From positions 6,332 to 60,955 of the forward strand of contig PBKO01000011.1 of assembly GCA_002721465.1 (NCBI GenBank): a stretch of 54,624 nucleotides of DNA, in the 5' to 3' direction. The position numbers and the translations under genes were made by a program. The DNA is from Gammaproteobacteria bacterium (GTDB lineage Bacteria; Pseudomonadota; Gammaproteobacteria; Magnimaribacterales; D2472). Shown in pieces: positions 17,930-24,045 of the stretch. The notes beneath the pieces are model-generated. The model made no database searches. It saw only the letters and a list, made by a program, of their open reading frames with translations, and had not been told where the DNA came from. How positions within the stretch are numbered: position 1 is the first letter of the stretch; every line of letters begins with the position of its first letter.

Positions 17930-17971
17930 ATAAGTGTTTAATTGATTTACTTTACAAAATTGTTAATAAAA

Positions 17972-18577
17972 ATGATAGTAGACTTTATATTTGATGTTGC
18001 CAGTCCAAATGCTTATTTGGCTCATAGAGTAATTCCTGATTTTGAAAAAAGAACAGGGACAACCTTTAATTATATTCCTTGTCTTTTAGGTGGAATACAT
18101 AAACTAACCAACAATCAACCACCATTTGTAGCATTTGCTGAAATTAAAAACAAATCAGACTATCAGATAATTGAACTTGAAAGGTTTGTAAAACAACACA
18201 AACTTGATAAATATAAATTTAATTCTCATTTTCCTCCATCAACAATTCAAATACAAAGAGGCGCCATTGCTGCAAAAGAATTAGGTGTATTTGAACAATA
18301 CATTGAATGTGTCCTGGTTGCTATGTGGGAAAATGATAAAAATCTTTCAGATATAGAAGTATTGAAAGAAACACTTAATGAAAATGATTTTGATGTAAAT
18401 GCAATTATTGAAATAGTTACATCTCAAGCCTGCAAGGATGAACTCATTAAAAATACTAACGAGGCTGTTTCAAGAGGAGCATTTGGTGTTCCAACCTTCT
18501 TTCTTAATGAACAAATATTTTTTGGCAAAGATCACCTTCATCAACTAGAAGAATATATATATTCTTTAAAAAATTAG
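17972..18577 (+). CDS. DsbA-like HCCA isomerase / GST-kappa family protein
   Basis: DFIFDVASPNAYL, GAFGVPTF, FFGKDHL; start set at ATG 17972. Confidence 0.9.
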   Translation: MIVDFIFDVASPNAYLAHRVIPDFEKRTGTTFNYIPCLLGGIHKLTNNQPPFVAFAEIKNKSDYQIIELERFVKQHKLDKYKFNSHFPPSTIQIQRGAIAAKELGVFEQYIECVLVAMWENDKNLSDIEVLKETLNENDFDVNAIIEIVTSQACKDELIKNTNEAVSRGAFGVPTFFLNEQIFFGKDHLHQLEEYIYSLKN

Positions 18578-18627: not shown

Positions 18628-21054
18628 ATGTCAAAGATAAAAAGAAATTTTCTTATTGCAATTCTTGTTGCTTTTCAGAGTCACATTAAGAGTGATCTCG
18701 TAAATGAGGAAATTTTAAAAATTAATAAATTAGACAATGCTGTCTCATGTTTTATTTATGAGCCATATCTTGGAATTGTAAATAATATTGAAGATCTTGA
18801 AATTAAATCTGAGAAATTTGAAATTACTGATGATGAAATTCTCATCCTTAATGGAGACGTTGAATTAGATTTTCCTGATGGTTTGTTGAATTCACAAAAA
18901 GTTAGAGTAGACAAAGACAGAGGATATGTAGATTTTAAAAGGCAGGGTCAAATATTTTTTAAAGATTATTTTTTTAAAGCTGAAGAAGGAACTTTCAGCA
19001 GAGATGATGGTTATATTAATTTAAAAAATGGGGAAGCATTTTTAAATTCAAGAAATTTAATCATAAGCTTTGAAGAGCTTGATGGGGACTTGGATGATAA
19101 AATTAATCTTTCTAATGTTCAAATGACTTCGTGCTTAGACTCAACAAATGGTTGGGCTATTAATGCTGGCAAAGTATCACTTGATGAATCAACAAAAAGA
19201 GGAATTGCAAGAAACGTAAGAATAAAGATTCTTGATAAGTCCCTAATCAAATTACCTGTCCTTCCTTTTGCTACATCTAATGAGAATATGTCAGGATTTT
19301 TAGAGCCTACACTATCATACTCATCAGATGGATTAGATTTTGTAATTCCTTATTACAAAACTATATCGAAAAGAAGTGATATAACTATTGCTGCCAGAAA
19401 TATCTCTGAAAGAGGTTCTGGAATTGAAACAAATTACAGAAATCTGCATGGTAAGAAGAACAACCTTCGTAATATAGATCTAATTTATTTTAATAGTGAT
19501 AAAGAACATAAAAAAATGTACCCAAGTCAATCTGATGCAAGATGGGCTTTTAGCGTAAAAGATTCATATTTAGACAAAAAAACCCTATGGATAGACTTAG
19601 ATTGGTCAAAGGCTTCGGATGATTTGGTTTTGAGAGACATATCTGGTGAAATAACTTCGATTGGTTCCCAAAGAGAGCAAAATTTGAGACAAAACATTTC
19701 AATTAACGGTATATACAAAAATGTTGAATTTAAAATTTCTCACAATGGATTTCAGAGCCTTAATCCAATACTAACAAATGGGTACAAAACATTACCATCA
19801 ATAAACATAAAATATTATAAAAGTCTTAAAGGATTTTCTATTGAAGAGAACTTAAATTTGTCTGTATTTAAAGCGGATGATGTTCATGGCTTTTATGGGT
19901 ATCAAAATAAAAGTAATCAGTTTCCATTTTTTATAGATCCTGTAGAAGGATCAAGGGTATTCTCTGATTTCAAAATTTATAAAAGTTTTAACTTAAACAC
20001 ATTAAATATCTATTCTGGATTGGGATTAAAAAGTATTAACTATAATCTTGATAATTCACAGCAATCTCAATCAGTAAGTATTCCTAATTTAATTGTTGAC
20101 ATCAATACTATATTTTATAAGAAGAATAAGATGGATATTCATTTATTGAAGCCAAGATTAATCATTGGATATGTAGGATATAAAAATCAAGATTCAAATC
20201 CAATTTTTGACACAAATAAAATTTCGATGATTAATCAATTATCTAATATAAATCGGTTTTCTGGGATGGACAGAATTGGTGACCAAAAATTTTATACTTT
20301 AAATTTGGAATATAAAAAAAGAATGATGCATATGGATAAAATATCGTTATCTGTTTCAAAAAAGTTTTACCTTGAGGATAGAAAGGTATTTCTTGATAGC
20401 ATGCATATGTCAAATGATCCTATGAGCCAAATGAATATGGCTATGATGAATATGTCATCTCAAATGAATGGAATGATGGATATGTCTCAAATGGGTGGAA
20501 TGATGAAGATGCCAATGGATGAAGGGCCAGTTATGATAATGGGCAAGTGGATGCCTAGTATGAAAACAATGATTATGTCGTATACAAGCTATATTGAGGA
20601 ATCAAATAAGATCCCAGTGGGGGGCATTACTATTAATCATAAATTTAAGTCTGCTTCCATGGGTTATGCGAAGAGATACACAAGAATGTCAGGCGACTTT
20701 GGAGTTACTTTGGATTATTCAGAATTATTTACAGACATCAAAATAAAAAATAAAGTTAGCCTAATTGCGAAAATTAAATATGACGATGAAGCAAGCAAAA
20801 AAATTGAATCAATTTTTGGTATTGGTTATGAAAATTGTTGTATTGCAGTGAGGTTAACCACTTCTGACAAAAATCTCTCAAAATATTTAGATAATTTTGA
20901 ATCAACTTCATATGATTTTTTAAATGAAGCATGGAATAATGTTATAGAAATTGAAAATAAGAGTAGAGTTAATTTTCAATTTGAATTTAAAGGTTTAAAC
21001 TCAACTTTTGAAAAGGCAGGAAAAGCATTAAATAACTCTATTCTAAAATATTAA
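18628..21054 (+). CDS. lptD: LPS assembly outer-membrane protein LptD with Met-rich insert
   Basis: 808 aa; TSC, SGFLEP, PYY, NRFSGMDRIGD, YENCC, FQFEFKGL; upstream of surA-pdxA-rsmA. Confidence 0.9.
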   Translation: MSKIKRNFLIAILVAFQSHIKSDLVNEEILKINKLDNAVSCFIYEPYLGIVNNIEDLEIKSEKFEITDDEILILNGDVELDFPDGLLNSQKVRVDKDRGYVDFKRQGQIFFKDYFFKAEEGTFSRDDGYINLKNGEAFLNSRNLIISFEELDGDLDDKINLSNVQMTSCLDSTNGWAINAGKVSLDESTKRGIARNVRIKILDKSLIKLPVLPFATSNENMSGFLEPTLSYSSDGLDFVIPYYKTISKRSDITIAARNISERGSGIETNYRNLHGKKNNLRNIDLIYFNSDKEHKKMYPSQSDARWAFSVKDSYLDKKTLWIDLDWSKASDDLVLRDISGEITSIGSQREQNLRQNISINGIYKNVEFKISHNGFQSLNPILTNGYKTLPSINIKYYKSLKGFSIEENLNLSVFKADDVHGFYGYQNKSNQFPFFIDPVEGSRVFSDFKIYKSFNLNTLNIYSGLGLKSINYNLDNSQQSQSVSIPNLIVDINTIFYKKNKMDIHLLKPRLIIGYVGYKNQDSNPIFDTNKISMINQLSNINRFSGMDRIGDQKFYTLNLEYKKRMMHMDKISLSVSKKFYLEDRKVFLDSMHMSNDPMSQMNMAMMNMSSQMNGMMDMSQMGGMMKMPMDEGPVMIMGKWMPSMKTMIMSYTSYIEESNKIPVGGITINHKFKSASMGYAKRYTRMSGDFGVTLDYSELFTDIKIKNKVSLIAKIKYDDEASKKIESIFGIGYENCCIAVRLTTSDKNLSKYLDNFESTSYDFLNEAWNNVIEIENKSRVNFQFEFKGLNSTFEKAGKALNNSILKY
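20458..20511 (+). repeat. 27-bp imperfect tandem repeat (2 copies) inside lptD
   Basis: TCTCAAATGAATGGAATGATGGATATG / TCTCAAATGGGTGGAATGATGAAGATG, 23/27 identical, encoding SQMNGMMDM / SQMGGMMKM; a degenerate third unit (SQMNMAMMNM) precedes. Confidence 0.85.
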
Positions 21055-21056
21055 TT

Positions 21057-22301
21057 ATGAATAAAATTTTAATATCATTTATCTATTTAGTATCTACTTT
21101 ACAAATATTTGCTGAGACAGTGATACTCGATCGCATTGCTATTATTGTCGATGACGGTGTTGTTATGGAATCGCAAATCAAAAGTAGCATTGTCAAAATC
21201 AATCAAAGATATGAAGATCAAAATATACCTAAGCCTCCATTGGATGTTGTTGAAGAAAATGTTAAAGAACAATTAATAATAGAAGAGTTGCAACTTCAAC
21301 TTGCAGATAGAGCTGGAGTAAGAATCAGTGATGCTGAGTTGAATGTCACAGTAGAAAGATTGGCTAGAAATAATCAAATGAGCTTAGAAGAGTTCATTTC
21401 ATTTATTGAAAATAGTGGAGATTCCTACGAAGACTTGAGAGATGATATTCGAAAAGAAATGAGGATTCAGAGAATCCAAAGAGGACGGGTAAACTCAACA
21501 ATCGATATCACTGAAAAAGAATTTGATGCATTTTTAGCTACAGATGATTCTCTTGATGCCCTTCAACCTGAACTATTAGTTAGACAAATCTTGGTGAAAG
21601 ATAAAAGTACTGCTGACAATGTCATTGATCAGATAAATAAAAACATTGAATTTTCTGATTTGGCAAAACAATACTCACTAAGTGCAACTGCTCAAAATGG
21701 TGGACTTATGTCCTGGAAAAGACTTAATGAAATGCCGGTGTTATATGAGAATGCTCTTGATAAAAAATCTGTGGGTTATATTTCTGAGCCACTAGAAAGT
21801 GGATCAGGATTTCATATTTTAAAACTCGAAGATAAAAAAGGTGATTTTGTGCAATTTCAAGATCAATGGAAATCAAGACATATTCTTTTAATGCCCACTG
21901 CAATTAGAGACGATGAAGAAACTGAAAGACTTTTAAATGAAATTAGAGACAGAATTATCTCTGGTGAAGACTTTGGTGTTCTAGCAGATGAATTTTCAGA
22001 AGATCCAGGTTCAGCAAAGCTTGGAGGTGATCTAGGTTGGTTAGGCCAAGGAGTCCTAGCAGACAAATTTGAAGAAACAATGCTTGCCTCAGAAATTAAT
22101 GAGATTTCTGAAGTATTTAAAACAGAATTTGGTTATCACTTTCTTGAAGTTTTAGAAAAAAGGAATCATGAGCTTACAAATGAATTAATTGAGGAGAGAG
22201 CATATCAAGTATTATATTCAAGAAAATTTGATGAAGAGCTAGATAATACTCTAAGAACAATGCGTGCTGAGGCTTTTGTTGAATTCAAAGAATTAGATTG
22301 A
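21057..22301 (+). CDS. surA: Periplasmic chaperone/PPIase SurA
   Basis: Signal peptide, LDRIAIIVDDGVV, two parvulin domains (GGLMSW; HILL..SEDPGS..GGDLGW..FGYH). Confidence 0.95.
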   Translation: MNKILISFIYLVSTLQIFAETVILDRIAIIVDDGVVMESQIKSSIVKINQRYEDQNIPKPPLDVVEENVKEQLIIEELQLQLADRAGVRISDAELNVTVERLARNNQMSLEEFISFIENSGDSYEDLRDDIRKEMRIQRIQRGRVNSTIDITEKEFDAFLATDDSLDALQPELLVRQILVKDKSTADNVIDQINKNIEFSDLAKQYSLSATAQNGGLMSWKRLNEMPVLYENALDKKSVGYISEPLESGSGFHILKLEDKKGDFVQFQDQWKSRHILLMPTAIRDDEETERLLNEIRDRIISGEDFGVLADEFSEDPGSAKLGGDLGWLGQGVLADKFEETMLASEINEISEVFKTEFGYHFLEVLEKRNHELTNELIEERAYQVLYSRKFDEELDNTLRTMRAEAFVEFKELD

Positions 22302-23281
22302 AAAAAATAATTTATTCTCCTGGTGAACCTGCCGGTATTGGTCCTGACATAATAATTAAATTATGTTGCTCTAACTCATGGGAAAAATATAAATCATCAA
22401 TAGTCTCAATTGGAGATCCTGAATTATTTATTAGAAGAGCTAAATTATTAAAAAAGAAACTAAAAATAGTTGAAGCTAATTCGTTAGAAGATTTAAAAAA
22501 AAATAAAAAAAATATTCTTCAAATAATCAAAGTATCCAAATGTAAAAATTATCAAGCAGGTGGTCTATCAGCTAACAATGCAGAATATGTAATAGATAAC
22601 TTAGACTATGCAATTGATCAAACACTAAATATAGACAAAGTAGCACTTGTTACCGGCCCTATTAGTAAAGAAAATATTACCTCAATCATTAAGAATTTTT
22701 CAGGTCATACTGAATATATTATGCAAAATACTAAAAGCAAAGATGTACTTATGATGCTTGCGTCTCCAAAATTGAAAGTGGCACTAGCAACTACCCATGT
22801 TCCTTTAAAAAAAGTATCTAAAATGATAAAAAAAGAATTAATTGTTAATAAAATTAAGATACTTAATAACGAACTTAAAAATAAATTTAATATTAAAAAA
22901 CCAAAAATAAGAATACTTGGCCTTAATCCTCATGCTGGTGAAAATGGAAAAATAGGCACAGAGGAATTAGATCATATTAAACCTGCTGTGAGGATCCTCA
23001 AGAAAAATAATATAGATGTTTCTTATCCAATTTCTGCTGATACTGCATTTTCTATTGGCCTATTAAAAGAGACAGACGCATATCTTGGAATGTACCATGA
23101 TCAAGTGCTTCCGGTATTAAAAGCTTTAAGTTTTGGCAACTCAATTAATATTACTCTTGGTATTCCAATTATTAGAACATCTGTAGATCATGGTGTAGCC
23201 CTTGATATTGCTGGAACATCAAAATCAAATTCATCCTCTTTAGATCTCGCAATTAAAACAGCAATAAGATTGACTAAATGA
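22298..23281 (+). CDS. pdxA: 4-hydroxythreonine-4-phosphate dehydrogenase
   Basis: GEPAGIGPD, GHTE, GLNPHAGE, MYHDQ, RTSVDHG. Confidence 0.96.
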   Translation: MKKIIYSPGEPAGIGPDIIIKLCCSNSWEKYKSSIVSIGDPELFIRRAKLLKKKLKIVEANSLEDLKKNKKNILQIIKVSKCKNYQAGGLSANNAEYVIDNLDYAIDQTLNIDKVALVTGPISKENITSIIKNFSGHTEYIMQNTKSKDVLMMLASPKLKVALATTHVPLKKVSKMIKKELIVNKIKILNNELKNKFNIKKPKIRILGLNPHAGENGKIGTEELDHIKPAVRILKKNNIDVSYPISADTAFSIGLLKETDAYLGMYHDQVLPVLKALSFGNSINITLGIPIIRTSVDHGVALDIAGTSKSNSSSLDLAIKTAIRLTK

Positions 23282-24045
23282 ACTCTAGAGACCTAAGACG
23301 TAAATATGGTCAAAACTATTTAAAAGATAAGGCTATTTTATTCGAAATGGGCGAAGCAATAGCTCCGAGAGAACATGATAATTTTATTGAGATTGGTCCT
23401 GGTTTGGGTGCCCTCACCGATCAAATTAATATAGAAAAAATAAATGTTACATGTATTGAAATAGATGCAAAAAATATTGAATATTTAAGAAAGAAGTATG
23501 ATGGTCCTGCTAGCTTTAAATTCATAAATGAAAATATATTAGATTTTAATTTAGATGATGAAGTTAGTAACTACAGATTAATTGGTAATTTGCCATACAA
23601 TATCTCGACTCAAATAATGTTGAAGTTTATTGAAAATTACAAAAATATTTATGACATGCATTTCTTAGTTCAAAAAGAAGTTGCTGAAAAAGTCACTGGG
23701 AATGTTTCAACCAAAAATTGGGGAAAGTTAGCATTAAAAATTTCTGCTTTTTTTGACAGTGAAGTTCTGTTTGATGTTCCACCAGAATCATTTGATATTA
23801 AGCCTAATGTAAATTCAAGTTTTATAAGGCTCTTGCCAAAAAAAAACATAAATTATGATTTAGAAATCAAATCAGATCTTTACAATATAATTGATTCAGC
23901 CTTTATGTCTCGAAGAAAAAATATAAAGAATAATTTAAAAAATCTTAATATTAATTGGAATGAAGTTGATATAAATCCAAATAAAAGATCTGAAGAATTA
24001 TCAACACAAGATTTTATCTATTTAGCTAAAAGTTTAAAAAAATAA
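23278..24045 (+). CDS. rsmA: 16S rRNA adenine dimethyltransferase (KsgA)
   Basis: GQNYL, EIGPGLGALT, GNLPYNIST, QKEVAE. Confidence 0.96.
   Translation: MNSRDLRRKYGQNYLKDKAILFEMGEAIAPREHDNFIEIGPGLGALTDQINIEKINVTCIEIDAKNIEYLRKKYDGPASFKFINENILDFNLDDEVSNYRLIGNLPYNISTQIMLKFIENYKNIYDMHFLVQKEVAEKVTGNVSTKNWGKLALKISAFFDSEVLFDVPPESFDIKPNVNSSFIRLLPKKNINYDLEIKSDLYNIIDSAFMSRRKNIKNNLKNLNINWNEVDINPNKRSEELSTQDFIYLAKSLKK

What the first reader, a model, noticed from the sequence alone, without database searches (positions are those of the whole stretch)
20401..20580. Methionine-rich, repeat-expanded insert in the LptD barrel
Seen: residues 592-651 contain 23 Met in 60 (17 in the first 40): MHMSNDPMSQMNMAMMNMSSQMNGMMDMSQMGGMMKMPMDEGPVMIMGKWMPSMKTMIMS, built partly from a 27-bp tandem duplication; RMMHM lies just upstream. 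The rest is an ordinary LptD with its Cys residues. Known: Met-rich loops bind Cu(I)/Ag(I) (CueO, Ctr1) and scavenge oxidants; LptD loops are surface-exposed and can be phage or antibiotic targets; I know of no such insert in E. coli or Pseudomonas LptD. Inference: an essential outer-membrane protein given a surface metal-binding, redox-shield or length-variable receptor-masking loop. It is costly in sulfur, so probably selected. This is the best novelty candidate in the window.
Basis: partly seen in the sequence, partly recalled or inferred. Interest (0 to 1): 0.75.

Follow-up and report, generated by a model that had tools for sequence, protein, structure and literature searches.

The report
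Methionine-rich surface loop in SAR86 LptD
One genus of the abundant ocean bacterium SAR86 has rebuilt one sector of its essential lipopolysaccharide exporter LptD with methionines (a length-variable surface loop that is about 40% methionine, plus a methionine-lined strip of the inner barrel wall), most likely to bind copper-like metals, although no binding has been measured.

Summary
The 808-aa LptD (window 18628-21054) has 23 Met in residues 592-651, partly from a 27-bp tandem repeat. No structure tool was available, so the placement rests on homology: the segment is extracellular loop L9, antibody-accessible and dispensable in E. coli and a phage contact in Pseudomonas.

It is a genus trait of SAR86. 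All 20 genus genomes with LptD and all 120 closest database relatives have it; 10 LptDs from two sister families and 144 of 150 family representatives do not. The loop is built from 9-residue Met repeats. It holds the only internal indels among near-identical relatives, yet it stays 27-49% Met with MxM spacing.

Four Mets at lumen-facing positions of strands 18 and 19 are invariant in the genus, where other LptDs have polar residues. New here: in one subclade the probable partner lipoprotein LptE carries a polymorphic His/Met repeat insert.

No P-type ATPase and no multicopper oxidase were found in 41 SAR86-order genomes.

My best reading is a thioether track that binds Cu(I)-like metals (confidence 0.4, untested). 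My searches found nothing in print. This scan noted the loop twice before, in other SAR86 genomes.

The parts
18628..21054 (+). lptD gene, 808 aa: N-terminal periplasmic domain plus C-terminal barrel.
   Evidence: It matches Pfam PF04453 with E 1.9e-27. hhalign against E. coli K-12 LptD gives probability 100% over 710 aligned columns. Solved LptD structures are the only PDB matches (15 of 15).
20377..20529 (+). Expanded extracellular loop L9 (residues about 584-634), Met-rich and low in complexity.
   Evidence: D584 aligns with D709 of P. aeruginosa LptD, the first residue of L9 (aa 709-733) as defined in the supplement of PMC12892993. hhalign treats residues about 596-628 as an insertion relative to E. 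coli. Across 64 unique loops the composition is Met 27-49%.
20401..20580 (+).
20443..20511 (+). 27-bp (9-codon) tandem repeat with 2.4 copies, inside L9.
   Evidence: One natural relative (P0277, 799 aa, 1 of 14 full-length members compared, out of the 15 listed of a 123-member cluster) lacks exactly one 9-aa unit here. Arrays of 27-bp period with different unit sequences recur in other genus members.
20320..20340 (+). Turn between strands 16 and 17 (residues 565-571, RMMHMDK), assigned to periplasmic turn T8.
   Evidence: Met at 567 in 18 of 20 and at 569 in 19 of 20 genus loci. The 108 outgroup LptDs have T/S/N and R/K/Q there, with 0-1% Met. The assignment to T8 comes from counting strands back from the Cys pair and is an inference.
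20530..20595 (+). Strand 18, turn T9 and strand 19 (residues 635-656), with Met at alternating positions read as lumen-facing.
   Evidence: Met is present in 20 of 20 genus loci at 638, 642, 648 and 650, in 19 of 20 at 645 and in 16 of 20 at 636. In 108 outgroup rows the same columns are polar (E/Q/D, Q/R/N, S/R/W, R/S/N) and the flanking columns are hydrophobic. Outgroup Met is 0% at 638, 642, 645, 648 and 650 and 1% at 636.
18748..18750 (+). Cys41. Together with Cys169 (19132-19134) it is one half of the LptD Cys quartet.
   Evidence: C169 is invariant and C41 is at least 90% conserved in the 144-row alignment A1.
20836..20841 (+). Cys737-Cys738 pair, equivalent to E. coli Cys724/725 (E. coli numbering recalled).
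   Evidence: C738 is invariant and C737 is at least 90% conserved. The pair aligns with the E. coli CC pair.
21057..24045 (+). surA, pdxA and rsmA directly downstream: the conserved lptD operon.
   Evidence: Pfam matches SurA_N/Rotamase, PdxA and RrnaAD. E. coli K-12 has the same order, lptD-surA-pdxA-rsmA.

Best explanation
In this SAR86 genus, one sector of the LptD barrel has been converted into a thioether-rich track.

Shown:
- Surface loop L9 was expanded by 9-residue Met-rich repeats to about 40-55 residues. It is about 40% Met with dominant MxM and MxxM spacing, is acidic, and has almost no Lys or Arg.
- Polar residues at alternating positions of strands 18 and 19, and in the two adjoining turns, were replaced by Met. 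These Mets are now invariant or nearly so across the genus.
- One subclade has added a His/Met repeat hairpin to the probable LptE plug.

Inferred: these methionines coordinate soft metal ions, above all Cu(I) (and Ag(I)), at and through the LPS translocon. The purpose would be either to hold Cu(I) away from the copper-sensitive parts of this essential machine (two non-consecutive disulfides, a lipoprotein subunit) or to pass it along. No canonical copper export or detoxification gene was found in these genomes.

Repeat slippage makes the loop length-variable, and selection keeps its chemistry. Metal binding, the direction of any metal movement and the benefit to the cell are all inferred and not tested.
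For: 1. Composition. In 64 unique loops from 169 sequences, Met is 27-49% (median 40%), D 11%, N 9%, P 7%, S 7%, H 3% and K+R about 1%. Met-Met spacing is 2 in 484 of 847 cases, against 24% expected for random placement. The window's loop holds 9 MxM, 10 MxxM, 3 MxMxxM and 4 MxxMxM. MxMxxM is described as a Cu(I)/Ag(I)-selective Met-only motif of human Ctr1 (PMC9117721, abstract seen in the listing).

2. Selection for Met itself.
- Met has a single codon in a 32% GC genome whose proteins are 2.1% Met.
- The trait is present in 20 of 20 genus LptDs at 52-97% identity and in 120 of 120 nearest database relatives.
- Loops that can no longer be aligned keep the same composition.

3. Met ladder. 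Met is present in 20 of 20 genus loci at 638, 642, 648 and 650. In 108 other LptDs these columns are polar with 0% Met, and the neighbouring columns are hydrophobic, so these positions face the lumen.

4. Second subunit. 7 of 22 genus LptE candidates carry His/Met repeats in one hairpin. The DNA motif for that unit occurs only at lptE in 5 of 5 genomes searched. In G000, LptD is the only strongly Met-rich ORF. The enrichment is therefore specific to the translocon and not genome-wide.

5. Precedent. PcoB is an outer-membrane barrel whose disordered His/Met-rich region is needed for copper efflux (PMC12509749, passages).

6. Rationale. Periplasmic copper catalyses wrong disulfides, LptD depends on two rearranged disulfides, and copper inhibits lipoprotein maturation (PMC6593411, passage). 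The four Cys are kept here.

7. Context.
- P-type ATPase domain: 0 of 41 SAR86-order genomes (control 14 of 14).
- Multicopper oxidase: 0 of 41.
- CopB: 0 of 5.
- HME-RND above the family cut-off: 0 of 41.
Against: - The lumen-facing and periplasmic assignments therefore rest on alignment and hydropathy alternation.
- No copper gene lies near lptD. The neighbourhood is the housekeeping lptD-surA-pdxA-rsmA operon.
- Sister SAR86 families lack the same copper genes yet have no Met loop. The missing efflux genes therefore do not explain why only this genus has the loop.
- The LptE insert is polymorphic among close relatives (>=84% identity to the G024 protein for those carrying three units or none): 3 representatives carry three units, 3 carry one unit and 7 carry none. 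It is therefore not essential.
- L9 is dispensable in E. coli (growth and MICs unchanged) and in P. aeruginosa.
- Neither Pfam nor the ESM Atlas links the loop to a copper family.
- LptD is a low-copy protein and free copper in the open ocean is very low (both recalled). Bulk buffering by the loop is therefore implausible.
Confidence: 0.4

Rival explanations
1. L9 is a variable surface shield or decoy. It is the outermost, dispensable loop of an essential receptor-grade protein. Phages (or other surface binders) select for rapid change in its length and sequence, and the Met-richness is secondary.
For: - L9 is antibody-accessible, non-essential and covers the functionally critical L10 in E. 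coli. The accessible loops are also the most diverse in sequence (PMC6592684, passages).
- P. aeruginosa phage DEV uses LptD as its receptor, and a loop 9 deletion gives thermosensitive plating (PMC12892993, passages).
- In three >=90% clusters the only internal indels lie in this loop: 1 of 14, 1 of 14 and 9 of 13 members. Loop columns vary about twice as often as the rest of the protein.
Against: - Masking does not require one residue type. Yet Met stays at 27-49% in 64 unique loops, with fixed MxM spacing.
- It does not explain the invariant Mets at lumen-facing strand positions or in the periplasmic turns.
- It does not explain a His/Met insert in LptE, which by topology lies at the periplasmic end (inference).
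Confidence: 0.2
2. The change is a structural remodelling of the translocon. The flexible hydrophobic Met side chains form a soft lining or gasket that packs against the strongly diverged LptE plug or against the lipid/LPS cargo. The loop is a lid belonging to that remodelled sector.
For: - The ladder Mets replace polar lumen residues in exactly one hairpin.
- The genus LptE is so diverged that Pfam LptE does not recognise it, so the interface may have co-evolved.
- L8, next to L9, contacts LptE in the lumen in E. coli (PMC6592684, passage).
Against: - The loop itself is acidic and polar apart from Met (D+N+S about 27%), and L9 is surface-exposed and not lumenal in E. coli.
- A gasket does not need repeat expansion, His residues or MxM spacing.
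- The LptE insert is present or absent among near-identical strains.
Confidence: 0.15
3. The Mets act as sacrificial antioxidants. Exposed methionines scavenge peroxide and photochemical oxidants in sunlit surface water and so protect LptD.
For: - The catalase family was found in 0 of 5 genomes.
- MsrA is present in 5 of 5 genomes, with a second copy on a 424-428 aa ORF in 4 of 5.
- Marine metagenomes and metatranscriptomes hold the sequence.
Against: - No reductase can reach an extracellular loop (established knowledge), so the protection would work only once.
- Sister families without the loop also lacked the catalase family: 0 of the 2 sister-family genomes searched had it.
- No other surface protein of this genome is Met-rich.
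Confidence: 0.1
4. The loop is neutral low-complexity drift. Slippage of ATG-containing repeats in a tolerant loop produced it, and it has no function.
For: - Tandem 27-bp arrays with different units recur.
- Indels are confined to the loop.
- L9 tolerates deletion in model species.
- The LptE insert comes and goes.
Against: - The trait has persisted down to 52% protein identity in 20 of 20 genus LptDs.
- Met is invariant at four non-repeat strand positions.
- No other ORF of the genome shows such tracts.
- In an AT-rich genome, drift would turn ATG into ATA or ATT.
Confidence: 0.1

Closest known systems
LptD (Imp/OstA) of E. coli, Shigella and P. aeruginosa (PDB 4q35, 4rhb, 5iva, 8h1r) and its extracellular loop L9
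   Same: - Same family and architecture.
- Same four Cys.
- Same operon order.
- A loop at the same place. In E. coli it is surface-accessible and dispensable, and in Pseudomonas it is a phage contact.
   Different: - L9 here is about twice as long and 40% Met.
- The aligned P. aeruginosa loop has no Met, and the E. coli loop is about 20 residues.
- The lumen-facing positions of strands 18 and 19 are Met instead of polar residues.
PcoB/CopB outer-membrane copper channel with a disordered His/Met-rich N-terminal region (PMC12509749)
   Same: Both are outer-membrane beta-barrels carrying a disordered segment rich in metal-ligand residues. In PcoB that segment is needed for copper efflux (passages).
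   Different: - The family is different: the CopB Pfam was found in 0 of 5 genomes.
- The PcoB segment is N-terminal, periplasmic and His-dominated, and it is encoded in a copper operon.
- Here the segment is an extracellular loop, Met-dominated, inside an essential LPS exporter, with no copper gene nearby.
Mets motifs of the Ctr1 copper importer ectodomain (MxMxxM; PMC9117721)
   Same: Met-only MxM, MxxM and MxMxxM strings on the outer face of a membrane protein.
   Different: Ctr1 is a eukaryotic helical trimer with short motifs. Here there are up to about 20 Met in a single loop of a bacterial barrel, and no transport function is known.
Methionine relay of the CusCFBA Cu(I)/Ag(I) efflux system
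   Same: Mets spaced along a path through a transporter, and MxM ligands in CusF and CusB.
   Different: There is no homology. No HME-RND pump above the family cut-off was found in 0 of 41 genomes. A relay role for the LptD ladder is pure inference.

Membership tests
LptD (PF04453, LPS-assembly protein) | Sequence match to the family model and to solved LptD structures. | tested here: met
   Pfam E 1.9e-27, 97 bits against a cut-off of 22.4. All 15 PDB matches are LptD. hhalign to E. coli LptD gives probability 100%. The NCBIfam LptD equivalog scores 155.6 bits, below its cut-off of 683, so this is a diverged member.
LptD (PF04453, LPS-assembly protein) | Four conserved Cys that form the two non-consecutive disulfides. 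| tested here: met
   Cys are at 41, 169, 737 and 738. In alignment A1, C169 and C738 are invariant and C41 and C737 are at least 90% conserved. Disulfide formation itself cannot be tested here.
LptD (PF04453, LPS-assembly protein) | 26-stranded barrel with an N-terminal jellyroll. | not testable with these tools
The only support is the full-length alignment to E. coli LptD.
LptD (PF04453, LPS-assembly protein) | Gene context lptD-surA-pdxA-rsmA, and lipid A synthesis present in the genome. | tested here: met
   LpxC was found in 5 of 5 genomes and in 22 of 22 high-quality genomes.
LptE (PF04390), for the 153-aa lipoprotein at G000:C10:27818-28276 | Match to the family model. | tested here: not met
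   - Pfam LptE was found in 0 of 41 genomes, but the control rang in only 3 of 14.
- The protein has no Pfam or NCBIfam hit.
- hhalign to E. coli LptE gives probability 12% and aligns only the signal region.
LptE (PF04390), for the 153-aa lipoprotein at G000:C10:27818-28276 | A small lipoprotein encoded between leuS and holA. | tested here: met
   - The order leuS, 153-aa ORF with signal peptide plus Cys18, then holA is seen in G000 and in G024.
- E. coli has the order leuS-lptE-holA.
- All 18 genus sequences examined have a signal peptide followed by an invariant Cys.
LptE (PF04390), for the 153-aa lipoprotein at G000:C10:27818-28276 | Similarity to solved LptE or to LptE clusters. | tested here: inconclusive
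   In the profile search of the PDB, 3 of 5 hits are P. aeruginosa LptE, but with E 0.5-0.9. In the ESM Atlas, 19 of 30 nearest clusters belong to the set carrying PF04390, at score 0.94. This is a lead only.
Cu(I)/Ag(I)-binding Met-motif segments (Ctr1 Mets motifs, CusF/CusB, PcoB region) | MxM, MxxM or MxMxxM strings with Asp/His partners and few basic residues. | tested here: met
Cu(I)/Ag(I)-binding Met-motif segments (Ctr1 Mets motifs, CusF/CusB, PcoB region) | Measured Cu(I) or Ag(I) binding. | not testable with these tools
   This needs peptide chemistry.
Cu(I)/Ag(I)-binding Met-motif segments (Ctr1 Mets motifs, CusF/CusB, PcoB region) | Genetic linkage to copper-homeostasis genes. | tested here: not met
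   None of the 52 further window ORFs scanned has a copper-related Pfam family, and neither do lptD's immediate neighbours.
PcoB/CopB (PF05275) | Match to the family model. | tested here: not met
   0 of 5 genomes match. The LptD loop alone has no significant Pfam hit.

The most novel reading that the evidence does not exclude
The LptD-LptE translocon of this SAR86 genus doubles as the cell's outer-membrane copper gate. A methionine relay runs from the periplasmic rim (turns T8 and T9, and in some lineages the His/Met hairpin of LptE), up the lumen face of strands 18 and 19, to the 40%-Met surface loop. It hands Cu(I) across the outer membrane without energy input, in an organism in which no P-type ATPase, multicopper oxidase, CopB or HME-RND pump was found.
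Probability: 0.1. Interest if true: 0.85.

Novelty: new variant of a known kind. Interest (0 to 1): 0.6.

Why it matters
LptD is essential, conserved, a drug and phage target, and thought to do one job. SAR86 is among the most abundant bacteria of the surface ocean and is uncultured.

A genus-wide, selected conversion of one barrel sector to methionine, mirrored in a subclade by a His/Met insert in the partner lipoprotein, has two implications:
- The LPS translocon can acquire a second chemistry.
- It offers a concrete, testable handle on how extremely streamlined cells, with no recognisable copper export genes, deal with copper or oxidants at their surface.

The peptides are short enough to synthesise. 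L9 is dispensable in E. coli, so the loop can be grafted and tested directly.

Tried and rejected

**Idea rejected: the Met loop replaces a missing LptE**
- Pfam LptE is indeed found in 0 of 41 genomes.
- However, a conserved lipoprotein sits at the canonical leuS-holA position.

**Idea rejected: the upstream DSBA-like gene is a periplasmic DsbA tied to LptD disulfides**
- It matches only the generic DSBA-like domain.
- Its translation shows no CxxC motif and no obvious signal peptide (sequence; my reading, not a tool call).

**Searches that gave nothing useful**
- Pfam on the loop alone gave only DUF6414 at E 0.17.
- The ESM Atlas on the loop returned LptD fragments only.
- Pfam on the LptE variants with inserts gave nothing relevant.
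- A profile search for wider LptE relatives listed only same-clade proteins without Pfam domains among its best 120.
- hhalign of the LptE profile to E. coli LptE aligned only the signal region.

**Literature**
- 'LptD' + 'methionine-rich': 1 paper, on gut pangenomes, listing only.
- 'SAR86' + 'LptD': 0 papers.
- 'CopB' + 'octapeptide' and related terms: 2 unrelated papers.
- Freinkman 2011 (PMC3038725) is not held.

**Reads**
- No indels were listed in the four runs laid. These are contigs, so rare length variants would not be seen.
- One X3 contig joins 20189 to 20814 with 603 other letters between. It is probably a diverged relative and was not pursued.
Full report
**What is there**

Window 18628-21054 (+) encodes an 808-aa protein. 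It matches Pfam LptD (E 1.9e-27) and, in the PDB, only solved LptD chains (15 of 15). It aligns over 710 columns with E. coli K-12 LptD (probability 100%). It is followed by surA, pdxA and rsmA, as in E. coli.

Residues 592-651 contain 23 Met in 60. The rest of the protein is 1.6% Met, and the four LptD cysteines are at 41, 169, 737 and 738. A 27-bp repeat (2.4 copies) lies at 20443-20511.

Against a genome background of 2.13% Met, the probability of such a window is 3.9e-23. No other ORF of the 986-kb assembly comes close: LptD has 14 Met in its best 30-aa window and the next ORF has 8.

The stretch is present in 14 DNA runs from 7 studies. Contigs from two metagenomes and from two RNA libraries cross it without gaps. 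These are contigs, not raw reads.

**Who has it**

The organism is an uncultured SAR86 bacterium. Two database contigs at 97% identity are titled as SAR86 single-cell genomes.

- In the genus, LptD was found in 21 of the 25 genomes searched, the window's own included. The 20 full-length LptD loci fetched from them, at 52-100% identity to the window's protein, all carry the tract, with 13-24 Met per 60.
- All 120 listed nearest database proteins also carry it, with 16-26 Met per 60.
- The 10 LptDs fetched from two other families of the same order are 698-751 aa and have at most 1-3 Met per 60.
- Among the best 150 of 2629 family representatives, only 6 reach 7 or more Met per 60. Four of these are from the same clade, one is a fragment of the upstream turn, and one is P0122.
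- P0122 is 42% identical and lacks the loop expansion. The next relatives at 30-34% identity also lack it.

The trait therefore arose within one SAR86 lineage and has been kept since.

**Where it sits**

The placement therefore rests on homology.

- The conserved FY-x-x-DR motif before the tract aligns with P. aeruginosa LptD so that D584 matches D709. Extracellular loop 9 of that protein is defined as aa 709-733 in the supplement of PMC12892993.
- hhalign treats residues about 596-628 as an insertion between E. coli residues about 586 and 605.
- Counting strands back from the Cys737/738 turn gives the same answer, L9 (my inference).

In E. coli, L9 is antibody-accessible. Its deletion leaves growth and the vancomycin and rifampicin MICs unchanged. 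[quoted passage not shown] In P. aeruginosa, a loop 9 deletion is viable and makes phage DEV plating thermosensitive (PMC12892993, passages).

The tract is thus an expansion of a surface loop that exists in all LptDs. The loop is about 50 residues here, against about 20 in E. coli and 25 in P. aeruginosa, where the aligned loop has no Met.

**How it is built and how it varies**

I delimited the loop by sequence anchors in 169 sequences. Ten of 179 were dropped because the diverged subclade has a different downstream anchor. The 64 unique loops have these properties:

| Property | Value |
|---|---|
| Length | 21-43 residues |
| Met content | 27-49% (median 40%) |
| Other residues | D 11%, N 9%, P 7%, S 7%, G 5%, H 3%, K+R about 1% |
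| Met-Met spacing of 2 | 57% of cases (24% expected by chance) |
| Met-Met spacing of 1 | 15% of cases (41% expected by chance) |

Arrays of 27-bp period recur in several lineages with different unit sequences: 3.1 copies at 94% match in L010 and 2.4-4 copies in L012, L014-L018 and L020.

In three clusters of >=90% identity (up to 40 members of each were read and 15 listed by the tool), every internal indel among the full-length listed members that I aligned lies in this loop:
- In one cluster, 1 of 14 members lacks exactly one 9-aa unit.
- In the second, 1 of 14 lacks 3 aa.
- In the third, 9 of 13 lack 4-5 aa.

Loop columns vary about twice as often as the others. Length and sequence therefore drift by slippage, while composition and spacing are held.

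**The methionine ladder**

In alignment A1 (34 clade rows and 108 outgroup rows), the outgroup columns of the two strands after the loop alternate between hydrophobic and polar. The clade's Mets occupy the polar columns, which I read as lumen-facing:

| Position | Element | Outgroup residues | Met in the 20 genus loci |
|---|---|---|---|
| 567 | preceding turn | T/S/N | 18 of 20 |
| 569 | preceding turn | R/K/Q | 19 of 20 |
| 636 | strand 18 | A/V/I | 16 of 20 |
| 638 | strand 18 | E/Q/D | 20 of 20 |
| 642 | strand 18 | Q/R/N | 20 of 20 |
| 645 | turn | D/K/Q | 19 of 20 |
| 648 | strand 19 | S/R/W | 20 of 20 |
| 650 | strand 19 | R/S/N | 20 of 20 |

Outgroup Met is 0-1% at these columns. P0122 has Met only at 567, 569, 592 and 638 among the ladder and loop-edge columns tabulated, so the turn came first and the rest of the ladder and the loop expansion came later.

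These are single, non-repeat positions. Slippage cannot explain them.

Pfam LptE is found in 0 of 41 genomes of the order, but its control rings in only 3 of 14 known genomes.

Between leuS and holA, where E. coli has lptE, G000 encodes a 153-aa protein with a signal peptide and Cys18. The evidence on its identity is as follows:
- It is found in 23 of 41 genomes, all of them in the genus.
- All 18 sequences examined keep the signal-plus-Cys pattern.
- It has no Pfam or NCBIfam hit, and hhalign to E. coli LptE is weak.
- The best PDB profile hits are P. aeruginosa LptE at E 0.5-0.9.
- 19 of 30 nearest ESM Atlas clusters belong to the set carrying PF04390.

I call it a probable LptE.

In 7 of 22 genus sequences this protein carries a His/Met repeat insert of about 10-35 residues, built from units of the M-D/N-H-S-M-H kind, in one hairpin. 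G024 shows the same leuS-X-holA order for an insert-bearing copy.

The insert is polymorphic. Among the 13 database representatives that share the sequence type of the G024 protein, 3 have three units, 3 have one unit and 7 have none. The DNA motif of the unit occurs only at lptE in 5 of 5 genomes searched.

On an LptD tree built without the loop columns, the six insert-bearing genomes fall in one supported nine-row clade, with one exception, G015.

The position of the insert can be inferred from topology:
- The hairpin aligns with the strand 3 to strand 4 hairpin of P. aeruginosa LptE.
- In E. coli LptE, R91 lies in the strand 2-3 hairpin and K136 at the start of helix 2.
- The conserved basic LPS-binding residues of LptE are described as lying at the extracellular side (PMC6286764 and PMC4353691, passages).
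- The strand 3-4 hairpin should therefore point to the periplasm. This is an inference from topology and has not been modelled.

**Context**

| Family searched | Result |
|---|---|
| LpxC (lipid A synthesis) | 22 of 22 high-quality genomes |
| P-type ATPase domain | 0 of 41 (control 14 of 14) |
| Multicopper oxidase | 0 of 41 |
| CopB | 0 of 5 |
| HME-RND above its cut-off | 0 of 41 |
| HMA domain, on a small ORF | 4 of 5 |
| DUF305 domain, on a 730-762 aa ORF | 5 of 5 |
| DsbC | 5 of 5 |
| MsrA | 5 of 5 |
| Catalase family | 0 of 5 |
| Sulfite-reductase domain | 0 of 5 (control 11 of 14) |

The lack of a sulfite-reductase domain means that methionine sulfur probably has to be acquired in reduced form, which raises its cost. 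All of these absences hold equally for the sister families without the loop.

**Reading**

The chemistry points to soft-metal coordination: Met-only MxM, MxxM and MxMxxM strings, acidic partners and almost no basic residues, with His added on the periplasmic partner.
- Ctr1's MxMxxM is called Cu(I)/Ag(I)-selective (PMC9117721, abstract in the listing).
- PcoB's disordered His/Met region is needed for copper efflux (PMC12509749, passages).
- The Met/His/Asp/Ser octapeptide repeats of P. syringae CopA and CopB look similar. That is recalled and was not checked.

Why LptD should carry such a track has a plausible answer. Copper catalyses wrong disulfides and blocks lipoprotein maturation, and LptDE depends on both (PMC6593411, passage).

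The case remains circumstantial. There are no binding data, no copper genes nearby and no model. The LptE insert is dispensable, and sister lineages live without any of it.

Phage-driven variation of an exposed receptor loop probably explains the length polymorphism. It does not explain the conserved Met chemistry, the lumen ladder or the LptE insert. Antioxidant and purely neutral readings fit worse.

**Novelty**

- My searches found no paper linking LptD with Met-rich segments ('LptD' + 'methionine-rich': 1 unrelated paper).
- They found none linking SAR86 with LptD (0 papers).
- This scan reported the loop twice before in other SAR86 genomes (e1-5054038 and e1-3983535), with the same best guess.

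I file it as a new variant of a known kind: LptD with a second, thioether-based chemistry.

Noticed in passing
Outside the window: G000:C10:27818-28276 (-). Relatives: L058-L064 (G022, G003, G014, G004, G006, G010, G024).: The probable LptE lipoprotein between leuS and holA is not recognised by Pfam. In 7 of 22 genus members it carries a polymorphic His/Met repeat insert (0, 1, 3 or about 5 units) in one hairpin.
   Followed up: yes
41 SAR86-order genomes (G000-G040).: No P-type ATPase domain (PF00122) was found in 0 of 41 genomes, 22 of them at least 90% complete, while the control rang in 14 of 14 known genomes. No multicopper oxidase was found in 0 of 41, and no HME-RND above its cut-off in 0 of 41.
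   Followed up: partly
Family f4 (genus g4): G027, G030, G033, G036, G039.: Five genomes of 91-97% completeness have LpxC (5 of 5) but no match to the window's LptD, to Pfam LptD or to LptD_2 (0 of 5 each). Either their LptD is extremely diverged or it is missing.
   Followed up: partly
G000:C15:5806-8010 (-), locus L043.: A 735-aa ORF with an N-terminal hydrophobic stretch (signal-peptide-like by eye, not tested with a tool) has a DUF305 domain (E 9.6e-38), a His/Met-rich stretch, and about 500 further residues with no family match. ORFs of 730-762 aa with the same domain are present in 5 of 5 SAR86 genomes searched.
   Followed up: partly
G000, G002, G019, G024, G031.: No sulfite-reductase NIR_SIR domain was found in 0 of 5 genomes (control 11 of 14). 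This suggests dependence on reduced sulfur.
   Followed up: no
G008:C2:80465-82847.: The LptD of this genus member is read in two pieces with one TAA stop between residues about 464 and 470. It could be a sequencing error, a broken gene or a split gene.
   Followed up: no
G015 (L015 and L053, both on contig C2).: Its LptD groups with the clade whose LptE carries the insert, but its LptE is insert-free and by eye resembles the type of another subclade (G009 and G017). This could reflect recombination or a chimeric assembly.
   Followed up: no
window 17942-18577 (+).: A 211-aa ORF with a DSBA-like thioredoxin domain (E 2.8e-30) lies directly upstream of lptD. It has a TTG start, and its translation shows no CxxC motif and no obvious signal peptide. 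It is probably a cytoplasmic isomerase-type member and not a DsbA.
   Followed up: partly
G000:C16:44654-45127 and the equivalent ORFs in G002, G019 and G031.: A second MsrA domain sits in a 424-428 aa ORF, present in 4 of 5 genomes. Its extra domains were not examined.
   Followed up: no
window 20189-20814 in run X3.: One metagenome contig joins these two places with 603 other letters in between, 21 fewer than the window has. It is probably a diverged relative with a shorter region.
   Followed up: no
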